Source of the DNA: a virus
Taxonomy: Duplodnaviria > Heunggongvirae > Uroviricota > Caudoviricetes
Length of the DNA: 64,000 bases
Virus record (IMG/VR): IMGVR_UViG_3300038345_000251
Location: 247,248-311,247 of that record
Direction: 5' to 3' (one strand)
Position numbers and translations under genes: made by a program. Positions 5,416 through 17,344 of the stretch are shown here, piece after piece (position 1 is the stretch's first letter; every line of letters begins with the position of its first letter). Under the pieces are notes generated by a model. The model was not told the DNA's origin. It ran no database searches and was given only the letters and a program-made list of their open reading frames with translations.

Positions 5416-5569
5416 TGGAGCAGGTGAACGGAATCGAACCGTCATAGCCAGATTGTTCAAACACTACGCTTCGGACGTACAATCGTTCTCCCATTTGTTT
5501 GAAATAATTACTCACAGTGAATTGGAACTGTATGGAAGTCTGGCGCACTAACCGTTGTGCTACACCTGC
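5416..5569 (-). tRNA. tRNA-Gly(UCC) interrupted by a 79-nt intron
   Basis: exon1 5569-5534 ends CCAGA-CTTCC; exon2 5454-5416 AA-TCTGG...T-CCA; joining gives a canonical tRNA. Confidence 0.9.
5455..5533 (-). other. AUACRG...C mini-intron in tRNA-Gly(UCC)
   Basis: starts ATACAG; ACAGT/ACTGT pairing; nested stem TTCAAACA/TGTTTGAA with T-like arm; terminal C. Confidence 0.8.
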
Positions 5570-5885: not shown

Positions 5886-6617
5886 TTACTGGTTTTTTAT
5901 ATCTTTTTTTCTAAATGGTAAATCGTATTTTTTACACCATTTTCTAACGGCATTATCTGTTACATTATAGATTTTACCAATTTCAACAAAACTTTTTTCT
6001 TTTATCAAGGAACTTAAAACATCTTTTGGCGGAATTGCATTTTTTTTCTTATTGTATGAAATGTTGTTTTTTTCTAAAAATTTGTTTAATGTTTTTCCAG
6101 TTATATGATTTTTTTTATAAATTTCTTTTTTAGGTAATCCGTTGTTAATGTCATTAATTATACTTTCATAATTTAAATAATTAAAAGAATCGTTTGTTTT
6201 ATGTATATAATTATTTTCATTGTAAAATGAAACCTTGTTTTTTTCCTTTTCTTCTTCTTTCTTTTTTTCTTTTTCTTGTCTGATTTTATAATGTATTTCT
6301 CTATGACAGTTAGCACAAAGTAACATACATTTATCAACTTCTTTTTTTAACGTTTCGATATTACATATTTTACTTGCTGAAATATTGAAATCTTTTTGTG
6401 TTGGGTCTTTATGATGAAAGTCAAGTGCTTCAATACACTTGTCATATCCACATATTTCACATTTACCACCTTTATATTCGACAAGTATTTGTTTATAATT
6501 TTTTCTTTTTTTAGCAACAGATTCATAGTTACATTTTTTACATCTTTTTCTTCCTTTTTTGTCAACGGAAAATTCAGTTTTTCCGTGTATCGGACAAAGT
6601 TCTATAATTGTTTCCAT
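5886..6617 (-). CDS. free-standing HNH homing endonuclease with C-terminal HTH (start moved to METII)
   Basis: CxxC..LDFHH..LCANCHREIH HNH motif; ACTATTTATA just upstream. Confidence 0.8.
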   Translation of the reverse strand: METIIELCPIHGKTEFSVDKKGRKRCKKCNYESVAKKRKNYKQILVEYKGGKCEICGYDKCIEALDFHHKDPTQKDFNISASKICNIETLKKEVDKCMLLCANCHREIHYKIRQEKEKKKEEEKEKNKVSFYNENNYIHKTNDSFNYLNYESIINDINNGLPKKEIYKKNHITGKTLNKFLEKNNISYNKKKNAIPPKDVLSSLIKEKSFVEIGKIYNVTDNAVRKWCKKYDLPFRKKDIKNQ

Positions 6618-6687
6618 ATGTTTTTTATTATAAATAGTTTTTGGTTCGAAAAAAATGCGATAATGTAAAAGTTTTTTGTTCGATTTG

Positions 6688-6764
6688 TCGGGACGGCAGG
6701 AATTGAACCTGCATGTAACCAATTACACTTTCAACACCTTATCAGGGTGAGGTGATACGTCCCG
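6688..6764 (-). tRNA. atypical D-arm-less tRNA-Ile(GAU)-like RNA with long extra arm
   Basis: acceptor CGGGACG/CGTCCCG, CACC-CT GAT AA-GGTG, extra hairpin TGTAA/TTACA, T arm GCAGG/CCTGC; only about 7 nt where the D arm should be. Confidence 0.55.
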
Positions 6765-7049: not shown

Positions 7050-7172
7050 TTGGGGGTAGAGGAATCGAACCTCTGTCTCGTCTTTATGAGAGATTTGCTA
7101 AGAAATTGCTGCAAGCTTTTATATCGAAAAGCCTTTTTCGCTTTTCGTATGCTGCCACTACACCAACCCCCA
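7050..7172 (-). tRNA. atypical tRNA(CAU)-like RNA with a ~50-nt stem+GCAGCAA insert in the anticodon stem
   Basis: intact acceptor, D and T arms; TCT-CT CAT AA-AGA; insert GCTTTT/AAAAGC-TT-GCAGCAA. Confidence 0.6.
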
Positions 7173-7179
7173 ATTGTTT

Positions 7180-7386
7180 TTATTTGTCAACTAAATTATT
7201 TCTAAGTCTTTCAAATTCTTTTTTATCTTGTTTATTTTTCTTTTGTAATTTTTCTACTTTGTTATCATTGCTTCCACAATGTCTATCATAGTATTTTTTT
7301 ACTTTAAATGGATAATCATTAAAATCATCACCATAAACACCATGTTTGGATTTTGCTTTTTCAGAATGTAATCTAGTTTTAGACAT
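7180..7386 (-). CDS. small basic hypothetical protein (start moved to MSKTRL)
   Basis: 68 aa; the ORF-track extension overlaps a tRNA-like gene. Confidence 0.5.
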   Translation of the reverse strand: MSKTRLHSEKAKSKHGVYGDDFNDYPFKVKKYYDRHCGSNDNKVEKLQKKNKQDKKEFERLRNNLVDK

Positions 7387-7407
7387 AATTTTATGTTTTA
7401 AAATTTG

Positions 7408-7522
7408 TGTGGATGAACAGATTTGAACTGCTGACACGAAGTTTACCCAAAAAGATGATGCTGTTAATTTCCAGAACTGAAAACATATTGTCTTCTGCTC
7501 TACCAGACTGAGCTACATCCAC
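7408..7522 (-). tRNA. atypical tRNA-Pro(UGG)-like RNA with a stem+ACAGCA insert in the anticodon stem
   Basis: intact acceptor, D and T arms; loop TT TGG GT; insert GTTTTCAG-TT-CTGGAAAT-TA-ACAGCAT. Confidence 0.6.
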
Positions 7523-7531
7523 ATATTAGAC

Positions 7532-7585
7532 GGAAAACGCTTTTCATTGCTACCCAGTAATAATTTAACTTGCTGTGTATTTTCC
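7532..7585 (-). ncRNA. minimal stem+ACAGCAA element
   Basis: GGAAAAT-AC-ACAGCAA...TGGGT...GTTTTCC. Confidence 0.55.
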
Positions 7586-7674: not shown

Positions 7675-8598
7675 TTTTTTCAAATCTTTTTTCCTATAAG
7701 GTAAATCGTATGATTTACACCATTTCACTATTGTTTTATCACAAACATTATAAAGTTTTGCAATATATCTAAAAGAAAAATTAGTAATTAAATCAAATAA
7801 TTCTTTTTTAGAAGGTCTATTTTTTACTTTTCTTTGTTTTAAATAATACTCATGTTGTTTAATTGTATGTTTTTCATCATATTGCTCAGATTTTTTATAA
7901 TAGTTTGTATATTGTTTACCGTTTTTTGATATTTTTATTTCTCCTTTTGGTACTTTAATTATTCCAATATGAGTAATGTCTTTAATTTTATTATTTGATA
8001 ATAGTTCTTTTAATTTATTATTTATTAAATCATGATTGTTTTTTACTATGTCTTCTGAAATTCTAATAACTTTCCAACCCAAAGAAGTTAATAATAAATC
8101 TTTTTTCTTATCATTTTCTTTTCTTTCTTCATCTAAAAGATGTTGTGAACCATCTATTTCAACCGCAATTTTTTCATTGATAAATGCAAAATCAATATAA
8201 TATGGAAAAATAGATTTCTCTCTTTCAATTAAATATTTTTTATCATATTCATTTTCTTGAAGAAATTTTATAAAACATTTTTCTGGATAAGAAGGTTCAT
8301 TTCTTTTTCTCCAAGCAGTTTCTTCAGGATGTTCTTTTAAATATTTAAGCCTTATTTCTTTTAGTTTTAATTTTGTTTCTTTTGTATGTTTAAAACTCTT
8401 AGGATATTTTTTATGTGACAATGTGATTGATTCTGAAAAATTTCTTGTTATATTACCTAATAGTTTTTCTCTAATCCACATTTTTGATTTAATATTGTAT
8501 TTTTTAACAATATCACGTATTGAACAACCATTTAAATATTCATTTCTTATTTTTTCTTTTTCTTCTTCAGTAAACAAATTATCATATTTTGAACTCAT
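7639..8598 (-). CDS. free-standing DUF559/Vsr-like (PD-D/ExK) homing endonuclease
   Basis: YYIDFAF..KIAVEIDGSQH..D..L...GWKVIRI motif; HTH C-terminus; 3' end overlaps tRNA-Leu. Confidence 0.8.
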   Translation of the reverse strand: MSSKYDNLFTEEEKEKIRNEYLNGCSIRDIVKKYNIKSKMWIREKLLGNITRNFSESITLSHKKYPKSFKHTKETKLKLKEIRLKYLKEHPEETAWRKRNEPSYPEKCFIKFLQENEYDKKYLIEREKSIFPYYIDFAFINEKIAVEIDGSQHLLDEERKENDKKKDLLLTSLGWKVIRISEDIVKNNHDLINNKLKELLSNNKIKDITHIGIIKVPKGEIKISKNGKQYTNYYKKSEQYDEKHTIKQHEYYLKQRKVKNRPSKKELFDLITNFSFRYIAKLYNVCDKTIVKWCKSYDLPYRKKDLKKRSVVELVDTQV

Positions 8599-8672
8599 AA
8601 TTTTATCATTTTATTATAAATATAAGAAAAAAATAAAAACGAACCGATATTTTAAAAAATTTAATGTCCTTG

Positions 8673-8830
8673 TCGTGCATACCAGAATCGAACTGGTGTT
8701 TACAGAATGGGCTTCTTATAAAGTATCGAACTTTCTTCATTCTCACCAAGATTAAAATAAGAAGCTAACTTTTTTCAGATTAAGTTTAACTGTATAAAAT
8801 CTGTCGTCCTAGCCACTAGACGAATGCACG
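8673..8830 (-). tRNA. tRNA-Glu(UUC) interrupted by an 86-nt intron
   Basis: exon1 ends ACAGA-TT TT; exon2 starts C AT-TCTGT. Confidence 0.88.
8710..8795 (-). other. AUACRG...C mini-intron in tRNA-Glu(UUC), position 35/36
   Basis: ATACAG..AACTT..CTGAAA..AAGTT; nested stem GCTTCTTAT/ATAAGAAGC with AAAG-TTCGATA-CTTT arm; terminal C. Confidence 0.8.
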
Positions 8831-9585: not shown

Positions 9586-9804
9586 TGGGAAGGGGAGGAT
9601 TCGAACCTCCGAAGCCGTAAGGCAGCAGATTGTTCCATATAACTGATTCGAACAGTTGATTGCAAGTTTTTAACTTACTCCGACTTTATAACATTTTTTT
9701 GTTACCGTAAGCCTACGACTTTGACCACTTGTCTAATATGGAATTTGGTTTTCAGTTTGCTCTGTATTACAGTCTGCCCCATTTGACCACTCTGGAACCT
9801 TCCC
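9586..9804 (-). tRNA. tRNA-Tyr(GUA) interrupted by a 136-nt intron
   Basis: class II Tyr body; exon1 ends GCAGA-CT GTA; exon2 AA-TCTGC. Confidence 0.9.
9632..9767 (-). other. AUACRG...C mini-intron in tRNA-Tyr(GUA)
   Basis: ATACAG..CTGAAA; nested tRNA-like domain TTCCATAT/ATATGGAA with D arm GAC-AAGTGGTCAAA-GTC and T arm AACTG-TTCGAAT-CAGTT; terminal C. Confidence 0.8.
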
Positions 9805-9810
9805 ATTTAT

Positions 9811-10401
9811 TTACTGTATTAAAACACCTTGTTTGTTTTTTCTAGGTTTATAACCTGTTCTACCTAATTTCCAACCATTGTTTAAATATTCTTGAAGTTT
9901 TTCTTTTAATAAATATTTAACTTTACCTTCTTTATTAATCCAAATTCTTTTGTTTGTTGAATTTTCAGGTAACATTTTTTTTCTTGTTTTTTGTTTTGAT
10001 TCTTCTTTATGGTGTCTATTTTTCCATATAGTATTAAAAGAATCTTTGTTGTTTAAATAGATTTCTTGACTAATCCAAAATTTTTCACCATTTTTGTCTA
10101 TAACTGGTACCATTCCATTAGTACTAAAATACTTACCACCTATTTGAACATTATAGCAATTTTCATCTTTTATTAAAGTTTCATTTACTATTTCCTTTTC
10201 ATATAAAAAGGCTTCTTCTGATGTATTAAAATATTTTAATATTTCTTTTTTAAAGCATTCTATTCCATATTTAATAATTGCTTTTTTAAGAAATTTTCCA
10301 GAACCCATATAACCGTCATCAATATTATCTGTGTTATGTACACCATAATAATATTTGTTGTTAATGGTGTTTGTAATTTTATAAAAATAATGATATTTCA
10401 T
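9811..10401 (-). CDS. free-standing Seg-like GIY-YIG homing endonuclease
   Basis: YFYKITNTINNKYYYGVH..DDGYMGSG N-terminus. Confidence 0.8.
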   Translation of the reverse strand: MKYHYFYKITNTINNKYYYGVHNTDNIDDGYMGSGKFLKKAIIKYGIECFKKEILKYFNTSEEAFLYEKEIVNETLIKDENCYNVQIGGKYFSTNGMVPVIDKNGEKFWISQEIYLNNKDSFNTIWKNRHHKEESKQKTRKKMLPENSTNKRIWINKEGKVKYLLKEKLQEYLNNGWKLGRTGYKPRKNKQGVLIQ

Positions 10402-11653: not shown

Positions 11654-11679
11654 AAAATTTTAATTAAAATTAAACTTTG

Positions 11680-11817
11680 TCAAGGGTGAAGGATTCGAAC
11701 CCCCTGGATTCATCTGGAACGTCTAGAATACCCAAACTATCCCCTTTCGGTCTTCCCTATGTATCTGCTGTTAGCTACTCAGCAGTAAGGCTGTTTTACC
11801 AATTAAACTAACCCCTG
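11680..11817 (-). tRNA. tRNA-like RNA with a large insert replacing the anticodon arm
   Basis: acceptor CAGGGGT/ACCCTTG, D and T arms intact; insert has CTGCTG/CAGCAG hairpin with ACAGCAG, CC-GAAA-GG and TTTGGGT. Confidence 0.5.
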
Positions 11818-11825
11818 TAAATTTG

Positions 11826-11900
11826 TGTGCCCTGAATGAATCGAACATCCGCATTTTCTGGGACGTAAATCCCATTGGTCTGCCACTAGCCTAAAGACAC
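11826..11900 (-). pseudogene. atypical tRNA-Val(UAC)-like RNA with a 6-nt anticodon loop
   Basis: TGGGA-TTTACG-TCCCA, extended variable region. Confidence 0.5.
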
Positions 11901-12196: not shown

Positions 12197-12327
12197 AGGA
12201 AACGTTTTTTGTTTTGTTTTCGCCACTAAACTAACAATGAGAACACACAATCTCATTGTGGGGGATTCGAACCCACCGTCTTCTTTTTTGCAGAAAGTTA
12301 ACAATTTAAAATTGCTGTATGTTTCCT
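12197..12327 (-). ncRNA. circularly permuted tRNA-Cys-like RNA inside a stem+ACAGCAA bracket
   Basis: order: AGGAAAC-AT-ACAGCAA, CTTT-CT GCA AA-AAAG, T arm, ACAATGAG/CTCATTGT acceptor hairpin, D arm, GTTTCCT. Confidence 0.65.
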
Positions 12328-12690: not shown

Positions 12691-12772
12691 CAGGGACTTA
12701 CACTGTTTTAATCATGCCTAAACTAACTATCTATTGATAGTGGTGGAATCAAACCAACCTTCTGATGCCAAG
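12691..12772 (-). ncRNA. permuted tRNA-like fragment (T arm, acceptor hairpin, D arm)
   Basis: TGG-TTTGATT-CCA, ACTATC-AATA-GATAGT, TA-GTTT..AAAC. Confidence 0.45.
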
Positions 12773-12948
12773 CGGAAGCGGAGGGATTTGAACCCACGAC
12801 CCACGGATTAGCTTGATGTGTGGAATACGATACCACAATTCGAACTGCAAATGCTACGAGTTTTTCCTTAAACTACATCAAAACATGTTCGTTTCGGTGA
12901 ACAATTCCGTATACAGTCCGTTGCTCTGACCAACTGAGCTACGCTTCC
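12773..12948 (-). tRNA. tRNA-Asn(GUU) interrupted by a 102-nt intron
   Basis: exon1 ends ACGGA-CT GT; exon2 T AA-TCCGT; G73. Confidence 0.9.
12811..12912 (-). other. AUACRG...C mini-intron in tRNA-Asn(GUU), position 35/36
   Basis: ATACGGAATT-GTTC-ACCGAAAC-GAAC; nested TTGATGT/ACATCAA domain; terminal C. Confidence 0.82.
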
Positions 12949-13050: not shown

Positions 13051-13057
13051 TAAGTAG

Positions 13058-13235
13058 TACTCTCGTTGGGATTCGAACCCAAGACCCACAGCTTAGAACC
13101 CATAATGAGATTCGAACTCAATATTCATTACCTTAGCAATGTTCTATCCTAAATAGAAATTATGGGTTAATAAATCCGTTTCGGTGGATAATTCCGTATG
13201 AAGGCTGTTGCTCTATCCAACTGAGCTACGAGAGC
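13058..13235 (-). tRNA. tRNA-Arg(UCU) interrupted by a 104-nt intron
   Basis: exon1 ends ACAGC-CT TC; exon2 T AA-GCTGT. Confidence 0.9.
13096..13199 (-). other. AUACRG...C mini-intron in tRNA-Arg(UCU)
   Basis: ATACGGAATT-ATCC-ACCGAAAC-GGAT; nested cloverleaf AACCCATAAT/ATTATGGGTT with D, AC-like and T arms; terminal C. Confidence 0.82.
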
Positions 13236-13610: not shown

Positions 13611-13657
13611 AATCGTTATTTTTATTGAAATTATTATTAATTAAGGCTTATGCCTTG

Positions 13658-14001
13658 TGGACCAGAGCAGGGTCGAACTGCTGTCTTAAATACCGTCAAC
13701 AAAAAAATTGGTTACAAGCTTTACTATGTTCGTTCCTGAAGTCTATAAACATAGAAGAACTGAAAGTTACAGGAAGAACGATTTTAATTCGAATATTTTT
13801 TTGTTCTATCCTAGTTTAAAAATATTCTATTGTATCTTCTGTTTCCAGGTTTTACAAGACCCAGCAATACTTAGGCAATAGCGTAAGCGTATGCAAGTTG
13901 GTTTTCACTAACTTTGTCGTTTGTTGTTTGTAGAATTTTAAGTGTCACCACTACTTGTTTTCTTGTCAACTAATATCCAATCAAAACCAAAATACTGGCC
14001 C
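13658..14001 (-). ncRNA. ssrA: tmRNA; predicted tag (A)TNDKVSENQLAYAYAIA
   Basis: GGGCCAG/CTGGTCC-A acceptor with G3-U70, T arm, internal tag ORF 13924-13871. Confidence 0.88.
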
Positions 14002-16066: not shown

Positions 16067-16188
16067 TGCTACAGGTAGGAATCGAACCTACGAAATTGAA
16101 TATTGTTGTGCCAAATTCAAATAACAGTTTCATCCATAGTCACACTTTAGGAATCAACCATTGTGTTGGGCCACTTCACCACTATAGC
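16067..16188 (-). tRNA. atypical tRNA-like RNA with enlarged anticodon/variable region (possible Arg-CCU loop)
   Basis: acceptor GCTATAG/CTGTAGC, D and T arms intact; TT CCT AA in a poorly paired arm. Confidence 0.45.
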
Positions 16189-17272: not shown

Positions 17273-17344
17273 GTGATGTATATAGGAATCGAACCCATCT
17301 TGTCACGTTTAGAGTGTGCCGTTCTACCGATGAACTAATACATC
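17273..17344 (-). tRNA. amber suppressor tRNA(CUA)
   Basis: GATGTAT/ATACATC-A, D and T arms canonical, loop CT CTA AA; anticodon stem has only 3 central pairs. Confidence 0.75.

What the first reader, a model, noticed from the sequence alone, without database searches (positions are those of the whole stretch)
7050..7522. Two tRNA-like genes (CAU and Pro-UGG) with the RCAGCA module inserted in the 5' strand of the anticodon stem
Both keep intact acceptor, D and T arms and a proper anticodon loop. The anticodon stem is split by: A-rich spacer, 3' stem strand, loop, 5' stem strand, RCAGCA(A), spacer. This is a circular permutation of the stand-alone elements and links the motif structurally to the anticodon arm. 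They could be a second intron type or enlarged tRNAs that work unspliced.
Basis: partly seen in the sequence, partly recalled or inferred. Interest (0 to 1): 0.7.

Follow-up and report, generated by a model that had tools for sequence, protein, structure and literature searches.

The report
tRNA-shaped phage RNAs with Ro60-type handle
Two tRNA-shaped genes of a 393-kb phage each carry a conserved hairpin-plus-ACAGCAA arm grafted into the anticodon stem; this arm is most likely a kept docking site for the phage's Ro60-like ring protein, which would make them an undescribed kind of Y-RNA-like tRNA mimic and not tRNAs with a new intron.

Summary
Both genes (minus strand, 7050-7172 and 7408-7522) have intact acceptor, D and T arms. 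Each has an insert of about 40-50 nt in the 5' strand of the anticodon stem: A-rich spacer, 7-bp hairpin, 1-2 nt, (A/G)CAGCA(A/U), spacer.

About 21 such genes occur in 8 large-phage records. All helices covary, including the split anticodon stem (216 of 216 cells paired).

The same helix-plus-ACAGCAA "handle" closes about 10 stand-alone RNAs in this array. Several of these are tRNA bodies in circularly permuted order with a capped acceptor stem, which is the topology of bacterial YrlA Y RNAs.

The phage encodes a DUF2828/vWA protein whose model matches only Ro60/TROVE structures at the top. A minimal handle lies 4 nt before its start codon, and this is conserved with compensatory changes in two relatives.

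These interrupted genes have no insert-free orthologues, unlike the neighbouring Lak-type introns.

- **Best reading (about 0.55):** kept Ro60-type handle, Y-RNA-like tRNA mimics.
- **Main rival (about 0.25):** a new protein-dependent intron.
- **No RNA data could be obtained.**

The scan has noted this family before on other phage DNA.

The parts
7050..7172 (-). Gene A: tRNA-shaped RNA with CAU anticodon loop and a 52-nt handle insert
   Evidence: Orthologues in two other phage records carry the same split stem.
7094..7145 (-). Gene A insert, between anticodon-stem nt 28 and 29: A-rich spacer, hairpin, U, GCAGCAA, spacer
   Evidence: Unique canonical excision solution. Homologous inserts are aligned in A2.
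7114..7133 (-). Gene A handle hairpin P1 (GGCUUUU / AAAAGCU, 6-nt loop)
   Evidence: P1 pairs are 100% kept, with compensatory changes in 8 sequences. RNAalifold predicts P1 independently.
7106..7112 (-). Gene A conserved motif GCAGCAA
7079..7093 (-). Gene A upper anticodon stem (UCU), loop CUCAUAA and the 3' strand AGACG
   Evidence: helices 3 and 5 are 100% paired; 4 pairs have double changes.
7408..7522 (-). Gene B: tRNA-shaped RNA with UUUGGGU loop (UGG) and a handle insert of about 40 nt
   Evidence: Rfam tRNA 46.6 bits with a 50-nt insertion. An orthologue in G004 shows compensatory changes in the acceptor, T and lower anticodon stems.
7467..7484 (-). Gene B handle hairpin P1 (GUUUUCA / UGGAAAU, 4-nt loop)
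7458..7464 (-). Gene B conserved motif ACAGCAU
7438..7453 (-). Gene B irregular anticodon arm: UU, loop UUUGGGU, AA, bulged A, CUUC (pairs with GAAG at 7492-7495)
   Evidence: The G004 orthologue keeps the same 4+2 bp plus bulge geometry.
7531..7585 (-). Neighbouring stand-alone handle RNA between tRNA-Leu and gene B: P1 GGAAAAU/GUUUUCC, AC, ACAGCAA, 31-nt interior, then G
12197..12327 (-). Stand-alone handle RNA that encloses a circularly permuted tRNA-Cys(GCA)-like body. The order is anticodon arm, T arm, capped acceptor stem, D arm. This is the permuted counterpart of genes A and B.

Best explanation
Genes A and B are tRNA-shaped non-coding RNAs. Each carries a kept 'handle' grafted into the 5' strand of the anticodon stem. 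The handle is a short A/U-rich helix followed by 1-2 nt and (A/G)CAGCA(A/U), flanked by an A-rich strand and a spacer.

The handle is most likely the docking site of the phage's Ro60-like ring protein, a 555-aa protein with DUF2828/TROVE-like repeats plus a vWA domain. On this reading the RNAs are the un-permuted form of a phage family of Y-RNA-like RNAs, with a protein-binding stem-bulge module joined to a tRNA mimic, as in bacterial YrlA.

In the particle, the tRNA body with its specific anticodon loop (CAU; UGG) would present a tRNA look-alike to some tRNA-recognising factor. That factor could be a nuclease, repair enzyme, synthetase or modification enzyme, while the ring protein is tethered to it.

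Shown here:
- the anatomy of both genes;
- conservation and covariation of the family;
- the shared handle;
- the YrlA-like topology of the stand-alone members;
- the Ro60-like fold of the phage protein;
- a conserved handle in that gene's leader.

Inferred: that the protein binds the handle, that the handle is not removed, and what the partner factor is.
For: 1. The same module (perfect 7-9 bp helix, NN, ACAGCAA, closing strand always followed by G) closes about 10 stand-alone RNAs in this array. It also closes many in 7 other phage records, and the helix sequence covaries. A genome-wide scan gives 20 hits against 0 in reversed controls. Those that hold only a hairpin have no exons to join.
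2. Seven stand-alone members give a tRNA cloverleaf only when their interior is circularised. Controls gave 0 hits: the linear interiors (apart from one ordinary tRNA-Asp inside a falsely called element), 1000 shuffles, and the reversed sequences. Their order (variable region, T arm, capped acceptor stem, D arm) is the order described for YrlA Y RNAs (PMC4201824).
3. The phage encodes a DUF2828+DUF7788 protein, PHROG 850 'RNA-binding protein'. The 13 best solved-structure matches of its model are all Ro60/TROVE chains, including Thermus phage phiLo Ro60 (E 3.5e-7 to 2e-4, TM 0.24-0.52).
4. A minimal handle ends 4 nt before that gene's ATG. Two relatives' genes have it at the same place with compensatory helix changes (AGAAUUU/GAAUUCU, AGAAAUU/GAUUUCU, AGAAAAC/GUUUUCU). 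The phiLo Y-like RNAs also lie just upstream of its Ro60 gene (PMC12135203).
5. Handle-bearing tRNA genes have no insert-free orthologue (best body identity 0.83). The Lak-type introns next to them do (0.91-0.98).
6. Gene B, its orthologue and about a third of the family have non-U33 loops or a bulged stem that no excision repairs.
7. In this window genes A and B duplicate anticodons that ordinary tRNAs already supply.
Against: - No binding or expression data exist.
- The conserved motif is ACAGCAA, not the GNCGAAN0-1G/CGAA motif of known Y RNAs. Rfam's YrlA model does not reach its threshold (27.5 vs 69 bits, on a tRNA-to-tRNA span of the kind the authors warn about).
- Genes A and B lie about 100 kb from the Ro60-like gene.
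- The Ro60-like gene was not found in four related records, all incomplete at 37-82%. Two of five homologous genes examined lack the leader handle.
- In gene A and 12 other family members, removing the insert gives exactly a 5-bp stem and a 7-nt loop with U33 and R37. An intron would also produce this.
- The protein model is only of moderate confidence (pLDDT 67.5).
Confidence: 0.55

Rival explanations
1. The insert is a new kind of protein-dependent tRNA intron. An unknown endonuclease cuts at the base of the insert. A nick-sealing RNA ligase (a phage Rnl2-family enzyme or host RtcB) then rejoins the two parts of the 5' strand on the template of the 3' strand. This would give a working tRNA (CAU for gene A). 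The permuted stand-alone genes would be matured by the same reaction through a circular intermediate, as in Cyanidioschyzon merolae.
For: - Gene A and 12 other members give exactly one canonical anticodon arm after excision.
- Both parts of the split stem covary with the 3' strand.
- The permutation junction coincides with the insert position. In algae this coincidence is taken as the signature of a shared splicing machinery (own knowledge: Soma et al. 2007).
- The acceptor linkers of the permuted members are 7-20 nt and AU-rich, like inter-tRNA spacers.
- The phage has two PF09414 RNA ligase genes.
- M. smegmatis YrlA is cut by RNase P and receives CCA (PMC4201824).
Against: - The phage has no EndA, RtcB or Rnl1.
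- The insert has no bulge-helix-bulge. It lacks the U/omega-G ends and the size of group I introns.
- The cut sites would lie 6-17 and 8-15 nt from the conserved module, not at a fixed distance.
- The same module occurs where nothing can be spliced: hairpin-only elements and an mRNA leader.
- No insert-free orthologues exist.
- Gene B cannot be made canonical.
- The ligase was not detected in G001, G003 or G004.
Confidence: 0.25
2. The two genes are decaying tRNA pseudogenes that were hit by a small mobile DNA element. The motif is a relic with no RNA-level role.
For: - Homing-endonuclease genes are scattered through the array.
- Gene B and some relatives have irregular anticodon arms.
- One relative (G005 Gly) has an 8-nt T loop and an acceptor bulge.
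Against: - In 8 aligned sequences, 216 of 216 structure cells are paired and 17 pairs carry compensatory changes. The insert hairpin is included, against 28-55% paired in slid controls.
- Orthologues of both A and B in another phage keep every helix through compensatory changes.
- The anticodon triplets are conserved across distant phages.
Confidence: 0.05
3. The insert is a small self-cleaving or self-splicing ribozyme.
For: - It is a conserved 7-nt single-stranded motif next to a helix.
- Theta (HDV-like) ribozymes are known beside phage tRNAs (PMC10879173).
Against: - No Rfam ribozyme family matches at E up to 1.
- The strand order does not fit the HDV-like fold: the closing strand is at the 3' end, with no room for P4/P2.
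- The conserved part is too small and the rest too variable.
Confidence: 0.05

Closest known systems
YrlA-type bacterial and phage Y RNAs bound by Ro60/Rsr (Rfam RF02553; Chen et al. 2014, PMC4201824; Thermus phage phiLo Yrl1/Yrl2, PMC12135203)
   Same: - The design is modular: a stem with a conserved unpaired motif on its 5' strand (the protein site) plus a tRNA-mimicking domain.
- The stand-alone relatives have the same order of variable region, T arm, capped acceptor stem and D arm.
- A Ro60-fold protein is encoded by the same genome.
- One small member lies directly upstream of that gene, as in phiLo.
   Different: - The motif is ACAGCAA, not GNCGAAN0-1G/CGAA.
- The protein is a divergent DUF2828 family member that Pfam does not file under TROVE.
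- A full anticodon stem-loop with a specific anticodon is present.
- Genes A and B are not permuted. They keep free acceptor ends and carry the protein site as a capped hairpin inside the anticodon stem.
- The RNAs sit in the tRNA array, far from the protein gene.
- No binding has been shown.
'Enigmatic' tRNA introns of Lak megaphages (Devoto et al. 2019, PMC6784885)
   Same: - They are inserts in tRNA genes of very large gut or rumen phages, and Rfam does not recognise them.
- This window holds five of that type (Gly, Glu, Asn, Arg and another).
   Different: The Lak type:
- starts AUAC(A/G)G inside the anticodon loop after nt 35-37;
- is 80-105 nt long and carries a nested tRNA-like domain;
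- is present or absent between orthologous genes.

The inserts of A and B are 40-55 nt, sit in the 5' stem strand, have a hairpin-first layout with ACAGCAA, and are never absent.
Circularly permuted and intron-bearing tRNA genes of Cyanidioschyzon merolae and some archaea (own knowledge)
   Same: Un-permuted genes with an insert and permuted genes coexist, and the permutation junction lies at the insert position.
   Different: In the algal and archaeal cases the junction is a bulge-helix-bulge cut by the EndA-family endonuclease. Here there is no such motif and no such enzyme. The hosts are bacteria, and the junction module also occurs without any tRNA.

Membership tests
Y RNA / YrlA-type Ro60 partner RNA | A Ro60/TROVE-fold protein is encoded by the same genome | tested here: met
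   The 555-aa protein has DUF2828+DUF7788 and matches PHROG 850. The 13 best PDB matches of its model are all Ro60/TROVE chains.
Y RNA / YrlA-type Ro60 partner RNA | Conserved protein-site motif GNCGAAN0-1G (CGAA) in the stem-bulge module | tested here: not met
   The invariant motif is (A/G)CAGCA(A/U). The stem-bulge-stem layout is similar, but the sequence differs from that given in PMC4201824 and PMC12135203.
Y RNA / YrlA-type Ro60 partner RNA | tRNA-like domain in the order V, T arm, capped acceptor stem, D arm between the two strands of the protein-binding stem | tested here: inconclusive
   Met for seven stand-alone relatives. Genes A and B have the un-permuted order, with the stem as an internal hairpin.
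Y RNA / YrlA-type Ro60 partner RNA | Scores above the Rfam RF02553 gathering threshold | tested here: not met
   Best score is 27.5 bits against 69, on a span from one tRNA's T arm to the next tRNA's D arm. There is no YrlA hit on the permuted element.
Y RNA / YrlA-type Ro60 partner RNA | Encoded beside the Ro60 gene | tested here: inconclusive
   A minimal handle lies in the gene's leader in G000 and two relatives. Genes A and B and the array elements are about 100 kb away.
Y RNA / YrlA-type Ro60 partner RNA | Physically bound by the Ro60 protein | not testable with these tools
   Needs EMSA or co-immunoprecipitation.
Decoding tRNA | Contiguous 5-bp anticodon stem and 7-nt loop with U33 and purine 37 | tested here: not met
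   Both genes are interrupted. Gene A becomes canonical only after removal of 52 nt. Gene B does not under any excision.
Group I intron in a tRNA gene | U at the end of the 5' exon, G at the end of the intron, and a conserved core of well over 100 nt | tested here: not met
   In gene A the 5' exon ends in G and the insert ends in A, and the insert is 52 nt. No Rfam intron hit.
Bulge-helix-bulge (archaeal/eukaryal) tRNA intron | Two 3-nt bulges around a 4-bp helix at the splice sites, and an EndA-family endonuclease | tested here: not met
   The last 4 exon nt have no complement near the 3' end of the insert (read). PF01974 is absent from the phage.
Lak-phage 'enigmatic' tRNA intron | Starts AUAC(A/G)G in the anticodon loop, has a nested tRNA-like domain, and insert-free orthologues exist | tested here: not met
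   The position, layout and size differ. No insert-free orthologue was found.

The most novel reading that the evidence does not exclude
The handle is both the docking site of the Ro60-like ring protein and the signal for a cut-and-rejoin pathway. The particle would recruit a nuclease and a nick-sealing RNA ligase that remove the handle from genes such as A. It would also circularise the permuted genes, turning them into working tRNAs on demand. This would be a protein-guided tRNA splicing system in bacteriophages, where none is known.
Probability: 0.12. Interest if true: 0.9.

Novelty: new variant of a known kind. Interest (0 to 1): 0.65.

Why it matters
Ro60 with its Y RNAs is an ancient RNA-surveillance particle, and its partners in bacteria and phages are poorly understood. 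This family would show that large gut and rumen phages carry whole sets of tRNA look-alikes, each with a specific anticodon loop, wired to a Ro60-like protein.

That points to a role in the conflict over tRNAs between phages and bacterial defences, such as anticodon nucleases and tRNA repair. It also gives a defined RNA-protein pair to test.

There is a practical side too. Annotation pipelines either miss these genes or call them intron-bearing or pseudo-tRNAs, so phage tRNA counts and inferences about genetic-code change can be distorted.

If the rival reading is right instead, this would be the first protein-dependent tRNA splicing known in the bacterial world.

Tried and rejected
- **Close relatives by DNA or protein:** the phage database had only generic tRNA matches. 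An exact 5'-half pattern of gene B found nothing, as did the SprT-like neighbour protein.
- **Insert-free gene A:** a search for an uninterrupted version found nothing in viral contigs.
- **Bacterial genomes:** the 16-nt stand-alone motif gave only chance hits there. None of the rows returned had the closing strand or a preceding tRNA.
- **Theta/HDV-like ribozyme reading of the stand-alone elements:** rejected on strand order and the lack of any Rfam hit.
- **Promoter reading of the 16-nt motif:** rejected because the helix covaries at the RNA level.
- **Site-specific recombination origin of the permuted forms:** rejected because the elements are flanked by single half-helices, not full sites.
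- **The small ORF between A and B (7180-7389):** it is shared only with G004, so it is not a general partner.
- **RNA ligase co-occurrence:** PF09414 genes are in G000, G002 and G006 but were not found in G001, G003 or G004. This is weak either way.
- **Isoacceptor identity:** body similarity to ordinary tRNAs did not identify one for A or B.
- **Wasted searches:** two family searches used a wrong Pfam number, PF11043.

Full report
**Setting.** The window is part of a 392,823-bp IMG/VR phage record with about 30% G+C. A tRNA array runs on the minus strand between 3,000 and 17,400. It holds 20 ordinary tRNAs, a tmRNA and a CUA suppressor, with homing-endonuclease genes between them. Nine further tRNA-like genes are 110-180 nt long.

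**The observation.**
- Gene A has a 7-bp acceptor stem, a D arm like that of the adjacent tRNA-Gln, and a standard T arm.
- Its anticodon stem is made of two pieces. C27-G28 sits directly after the D arm, and UCU sits directly before the loop CUCAUAA. Together they pair with AGACG.
- The 52 nt between the two pieces read: A-rich spacer, 7-bp hairpin, U, GCAGCAA, 12-nt spacer.
- I enumerated every way of removing a block from the gene. Exactly one product had 5 pairs, a 7-nt loop, U33 and a purine at 37.
- Gene B has the same layout, with the hairpin GUUUUCA/UGGAAAU, then UA, ACAGCAU and a spacer.
- Gene B's anticodon arm is irregular: GAAG/CUUC, a bulged A, UU/AA, and the loop UUUGGGU. No excision makes it canonical; the only 5-bp solution has G33.
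- RCAGCA is nearly three times over-represented in the window.

**The inserts are a conserved family, not decay.** A search for the 16-nt stand-alone motif in viral contigs brought in related large phages. I read their tRNA arrays in full.
- About 21 genes with a hairpin-first ACAGCAA insert occur in 8 records. Their anticodon loops are CAU, UGG, UCC, GUU, GUA, GAU and UUC.
- Both A and B have orthologues, adjacent and in the same order, in record G004. These show compensatory changes in the acceptor, T and lower anticodon stems.
- In an alignment of gene A with seven relatives, all 216 structure cells are standard pairs. Seventeen of 27 pairs change on both sides. The split anticodon stem and the insert hairpin are included. 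Slid controls give 28-55% paired.
- RNAalifold recovers the hairpin and the upper anticodon stem without guidance.

**Two kinds of insert in this array.** Five other long genes in the window start their insert with AUAC(A/G)G inside the anticodon loop and carry a nested tRNA-like domain. Table S6 of Devoto et al. 2019 shows the same type in Lak megaphages.
- Those inserts come and go between orthologous genes. For example, tRNA-Pro is intact here and interrupted in G004, while Gly-UCC is the reverse. Body identities are 0.91-0.98.
- The hairpin-first genes have no insert-free orthologue in any array I held; the best body identity is 0.83.
- They often duplicate an anticodon that an ordinary tRNA of the same phage already supplies.

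**The stand-alone elements.** The same module also occurs split in two. A 7-9 bp helix is formed by distant strands. Its 5' strand is followed by NN-ACAGCAA, and its 3' strand is always followed by G. The helix sequence differs between copies while pairing is kept, for example AGUAAUCC/GGAUUACU against GGAAAACA/UGUUUUCC. The helix is therefore an RNA helix and not a promoter.
- Some interiors hold only an anticodon-like hairpin.
- Seven interiors give an ARAGORN cloverleaf only when the interior is circularised. Three controls gave no such hit: the linear interiors (only one ordinary tRNA-Asp, inside a falsely called element), 1000 shuffled circles, and the reversed sequences.
- After trimming the junction they read as Cys, Tyr or Ile bodies.
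- One of them is in this window at 12197-12327.
- Their order is anticodon arm, variable region, T arm, acceptor stem capped by a 7-20-nt linker, D arm, A-rich strand.

**What the module is.** My first reading was a new intron plus permuted tRNA genes, matured by an unknown cut-and-rejoin system. Earlier notes of this scan suggested instead a handle for a Ro60-like protein. I tested that here.
- The ORF there (G000:C1:357367-359034) has DUF2828 and DUF7788 domains and matches PHROG 850, 'RNA-binding protein'.
- An AlphaFold model built on 22 homologues has pLDDT 67.5 and pTM 0.65. It shows a helical-repeat N-terminal part and an alpha/beta C-terminal domain.
- Its 13 best Foldseek matches in the PDB are all Ro60/TROVE structures: Thermus phage phiLo Ro60, Xenopus and human Ro60, and Deinococcus Rsr. 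E-values run from 3.5e-7 to 2e-4 and TM-scores (either normalisation) from 0.24 to 0.52.
- A minimal handle (AGAAUUU, AA, ACAGCAA, 19 nt, GAAUUCU, G) ends 4 nt before this gene's ATG.
- In two relatives, with proteins 79% and 66% identical, the handle is at the same place with compensatory helix changes. Two further homologues lack it.
- A genome-wide scan for the full pattern gives 20 hits against none in reversed controls.
- A handle in the leader of the gene for an RNA-binding protein is the classic arrangement for autoregulation. That step is my inference.

**Comparison with known Y RNAs.** Chen et al. 2014 describe bacterial and phage YrlA RNAs as a Ro60-binding stem whose 5' strand carries a conserved motif, joined to a tRNA-like domain. 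That domain is ordered variable region, T arm, closed 'acceptor' stem-loop, D arm. The phiLo study places two Y-like RNAs just upstream of the phage's Ro60 gene and describes a stem-bulge-stem site.
- The stand-alone elements here have that topology.
- Genes A and B are its un-permuted form.
- The differences are real. The motif is ACAGCAA and not GNCGAAN0-1G. Rfam's YrlA model does not reach threshold. The RNAs carry a complete anticodon arm. They lie in the tRNA array, about 100 kb from the protein gene.

**Weighing the readings.**
- *For a kept handle:* the module occurs where nothing can be spliced; the topology is YrlA-like; the Ro60-like gene carries its own handle; no insert-free orthologues exist; about a third of the family, gene B included, have non-decoding anticodon arms; there are no EndA, RtcB or Rnl1 genes, no bulge-helix-bulge and no group I features.
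- *For an intron:* gene A and 12 relatives give an exact 5-bp/7-nt product; the permutation junction coincides with the insert site; the acceptor linkers are spacer-like; two Rnl2-family ligase genes are present. In the 99%-complete record G006 such a ligase lies beside the Ro60-like gene.
- Canonical anticodon-arm geometry is also kept in hairpin-only stand-alone elements, which cannot decode. Mimicry therefore explains that feature as well as splicing does.
- I put the kept-handle reading at about 0.55, a true intron at about 0.25, and a hybrid in which the particle directs removal of the handle at about 0.12.

**What the RNAs would do is inferred only.** Anticodon triplets and position 37 are conserved across distant phages while positions 32 and 33 drift. 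This suggests recognition by an anticodon-specific factor. The known links of Ro60/YrlA with PNPase and with the RtcB repair operon come from the papers read and from my own knowledge. They make a role in tRNA damage, repair or decoying plausible.

**Limits.**
- There are no expression data.
- The related records G001-G005 are incomplete.
- The protein model is of moderate confidence.
- The mature form of gene B is unresolved.

I found the family in neither Rfam 15 nor the searchable literature. Earlier notes of this scan describe it on other phage DNA.

Noticed in passing
window 12197-12327 (minus): A stand-alone handle RNA encloses a complete tRNA-Cys(GCA)-like body in circularly permuted order with a capped acceptor stem. 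Six similar elements (Tyr, Ile, Cys) are in records G001, G003, G004 and G005.
   Followed up: yes
G000:C1:357321-357363, outside the window (L216:1322-1364): A minimal helix-plus-ACAGCAA handle ends 4 nt before the start codon of the Ro60-like DUF2828 gene. It is conserved with compensatory changes in L220 and L221. This looks like an autoregulatory leader.
   Followed up: yes
window 5416-5569, 8672-8830, 12772-12948, 13057-13235 (minus); L092: Lak-type AUAC(A/G)G inserts are present or absent between orthologous tRNA genes of this phage and G004. Pro is intact here and interrupted there. Gly-UCC, Glu-UUC and Arg-UCU are interrupted here and intact there. This fixes the insertion points.
   Followed up: partly
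window 7180-7389 (minus): A 69-aa ORF lies between genes A and B. It is 72% identical to an ORF in G004, which there lies after the pair. It has no Pfam hit and is absent from four other related records.
   Followed up: partly
window 5886-6722, 7700-8598, 9811-10401 (minus): HNH-type, DUF559-like and GIY-YIG homing-endonuclease genes are scattered among the tRNA genes. Two of them share a C-terminal helix-turn-helix-like tail.
   Followed up: no
window 6688-6764 and 11825-11900 (minus): Two odd tRNA-like genes. One has a weak Rfam score and an unusual D region and is conserved in G004. The other has a 2-nt 'anticodon' call by ARAGORN.
   Followed up: no
window 9632-9742, 11679-11817, 16067-16188 (minus): Three more long tRNA-like genes whose inserts fit neither type cleanly. 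11679-11817 contains ACAGCAG.
   Followed up: no
L216:5259-7291 (G000:C1:361258-363290) and G006:C1:100419-102946: The Ro60-like gene has RNA-repair-type neighbours. In G000 these are a Nudix hydrolase and an RlaP-like nucleotidyltransferase. In G006 it is a PF09414 RNA ligase directly upstream.
   Followed up: partly
window 13655-14001 and 17273-17344 (minus): A phage tmRNA and a CUA (amber-reading) suppressor tRNA, although most ORFs of the window are open under the standard code.
   Followed up: no
L095:2237-2365 and 2690-2815 (record G006): A 357-kb phage from another sample has two more handle-bearing tRNA genes. The Glu-UUC gene has the variant motif ACGGCAU. The Tyr-GUA gene has its insert exactly between nt 31 and 32.
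   Followed up: partly
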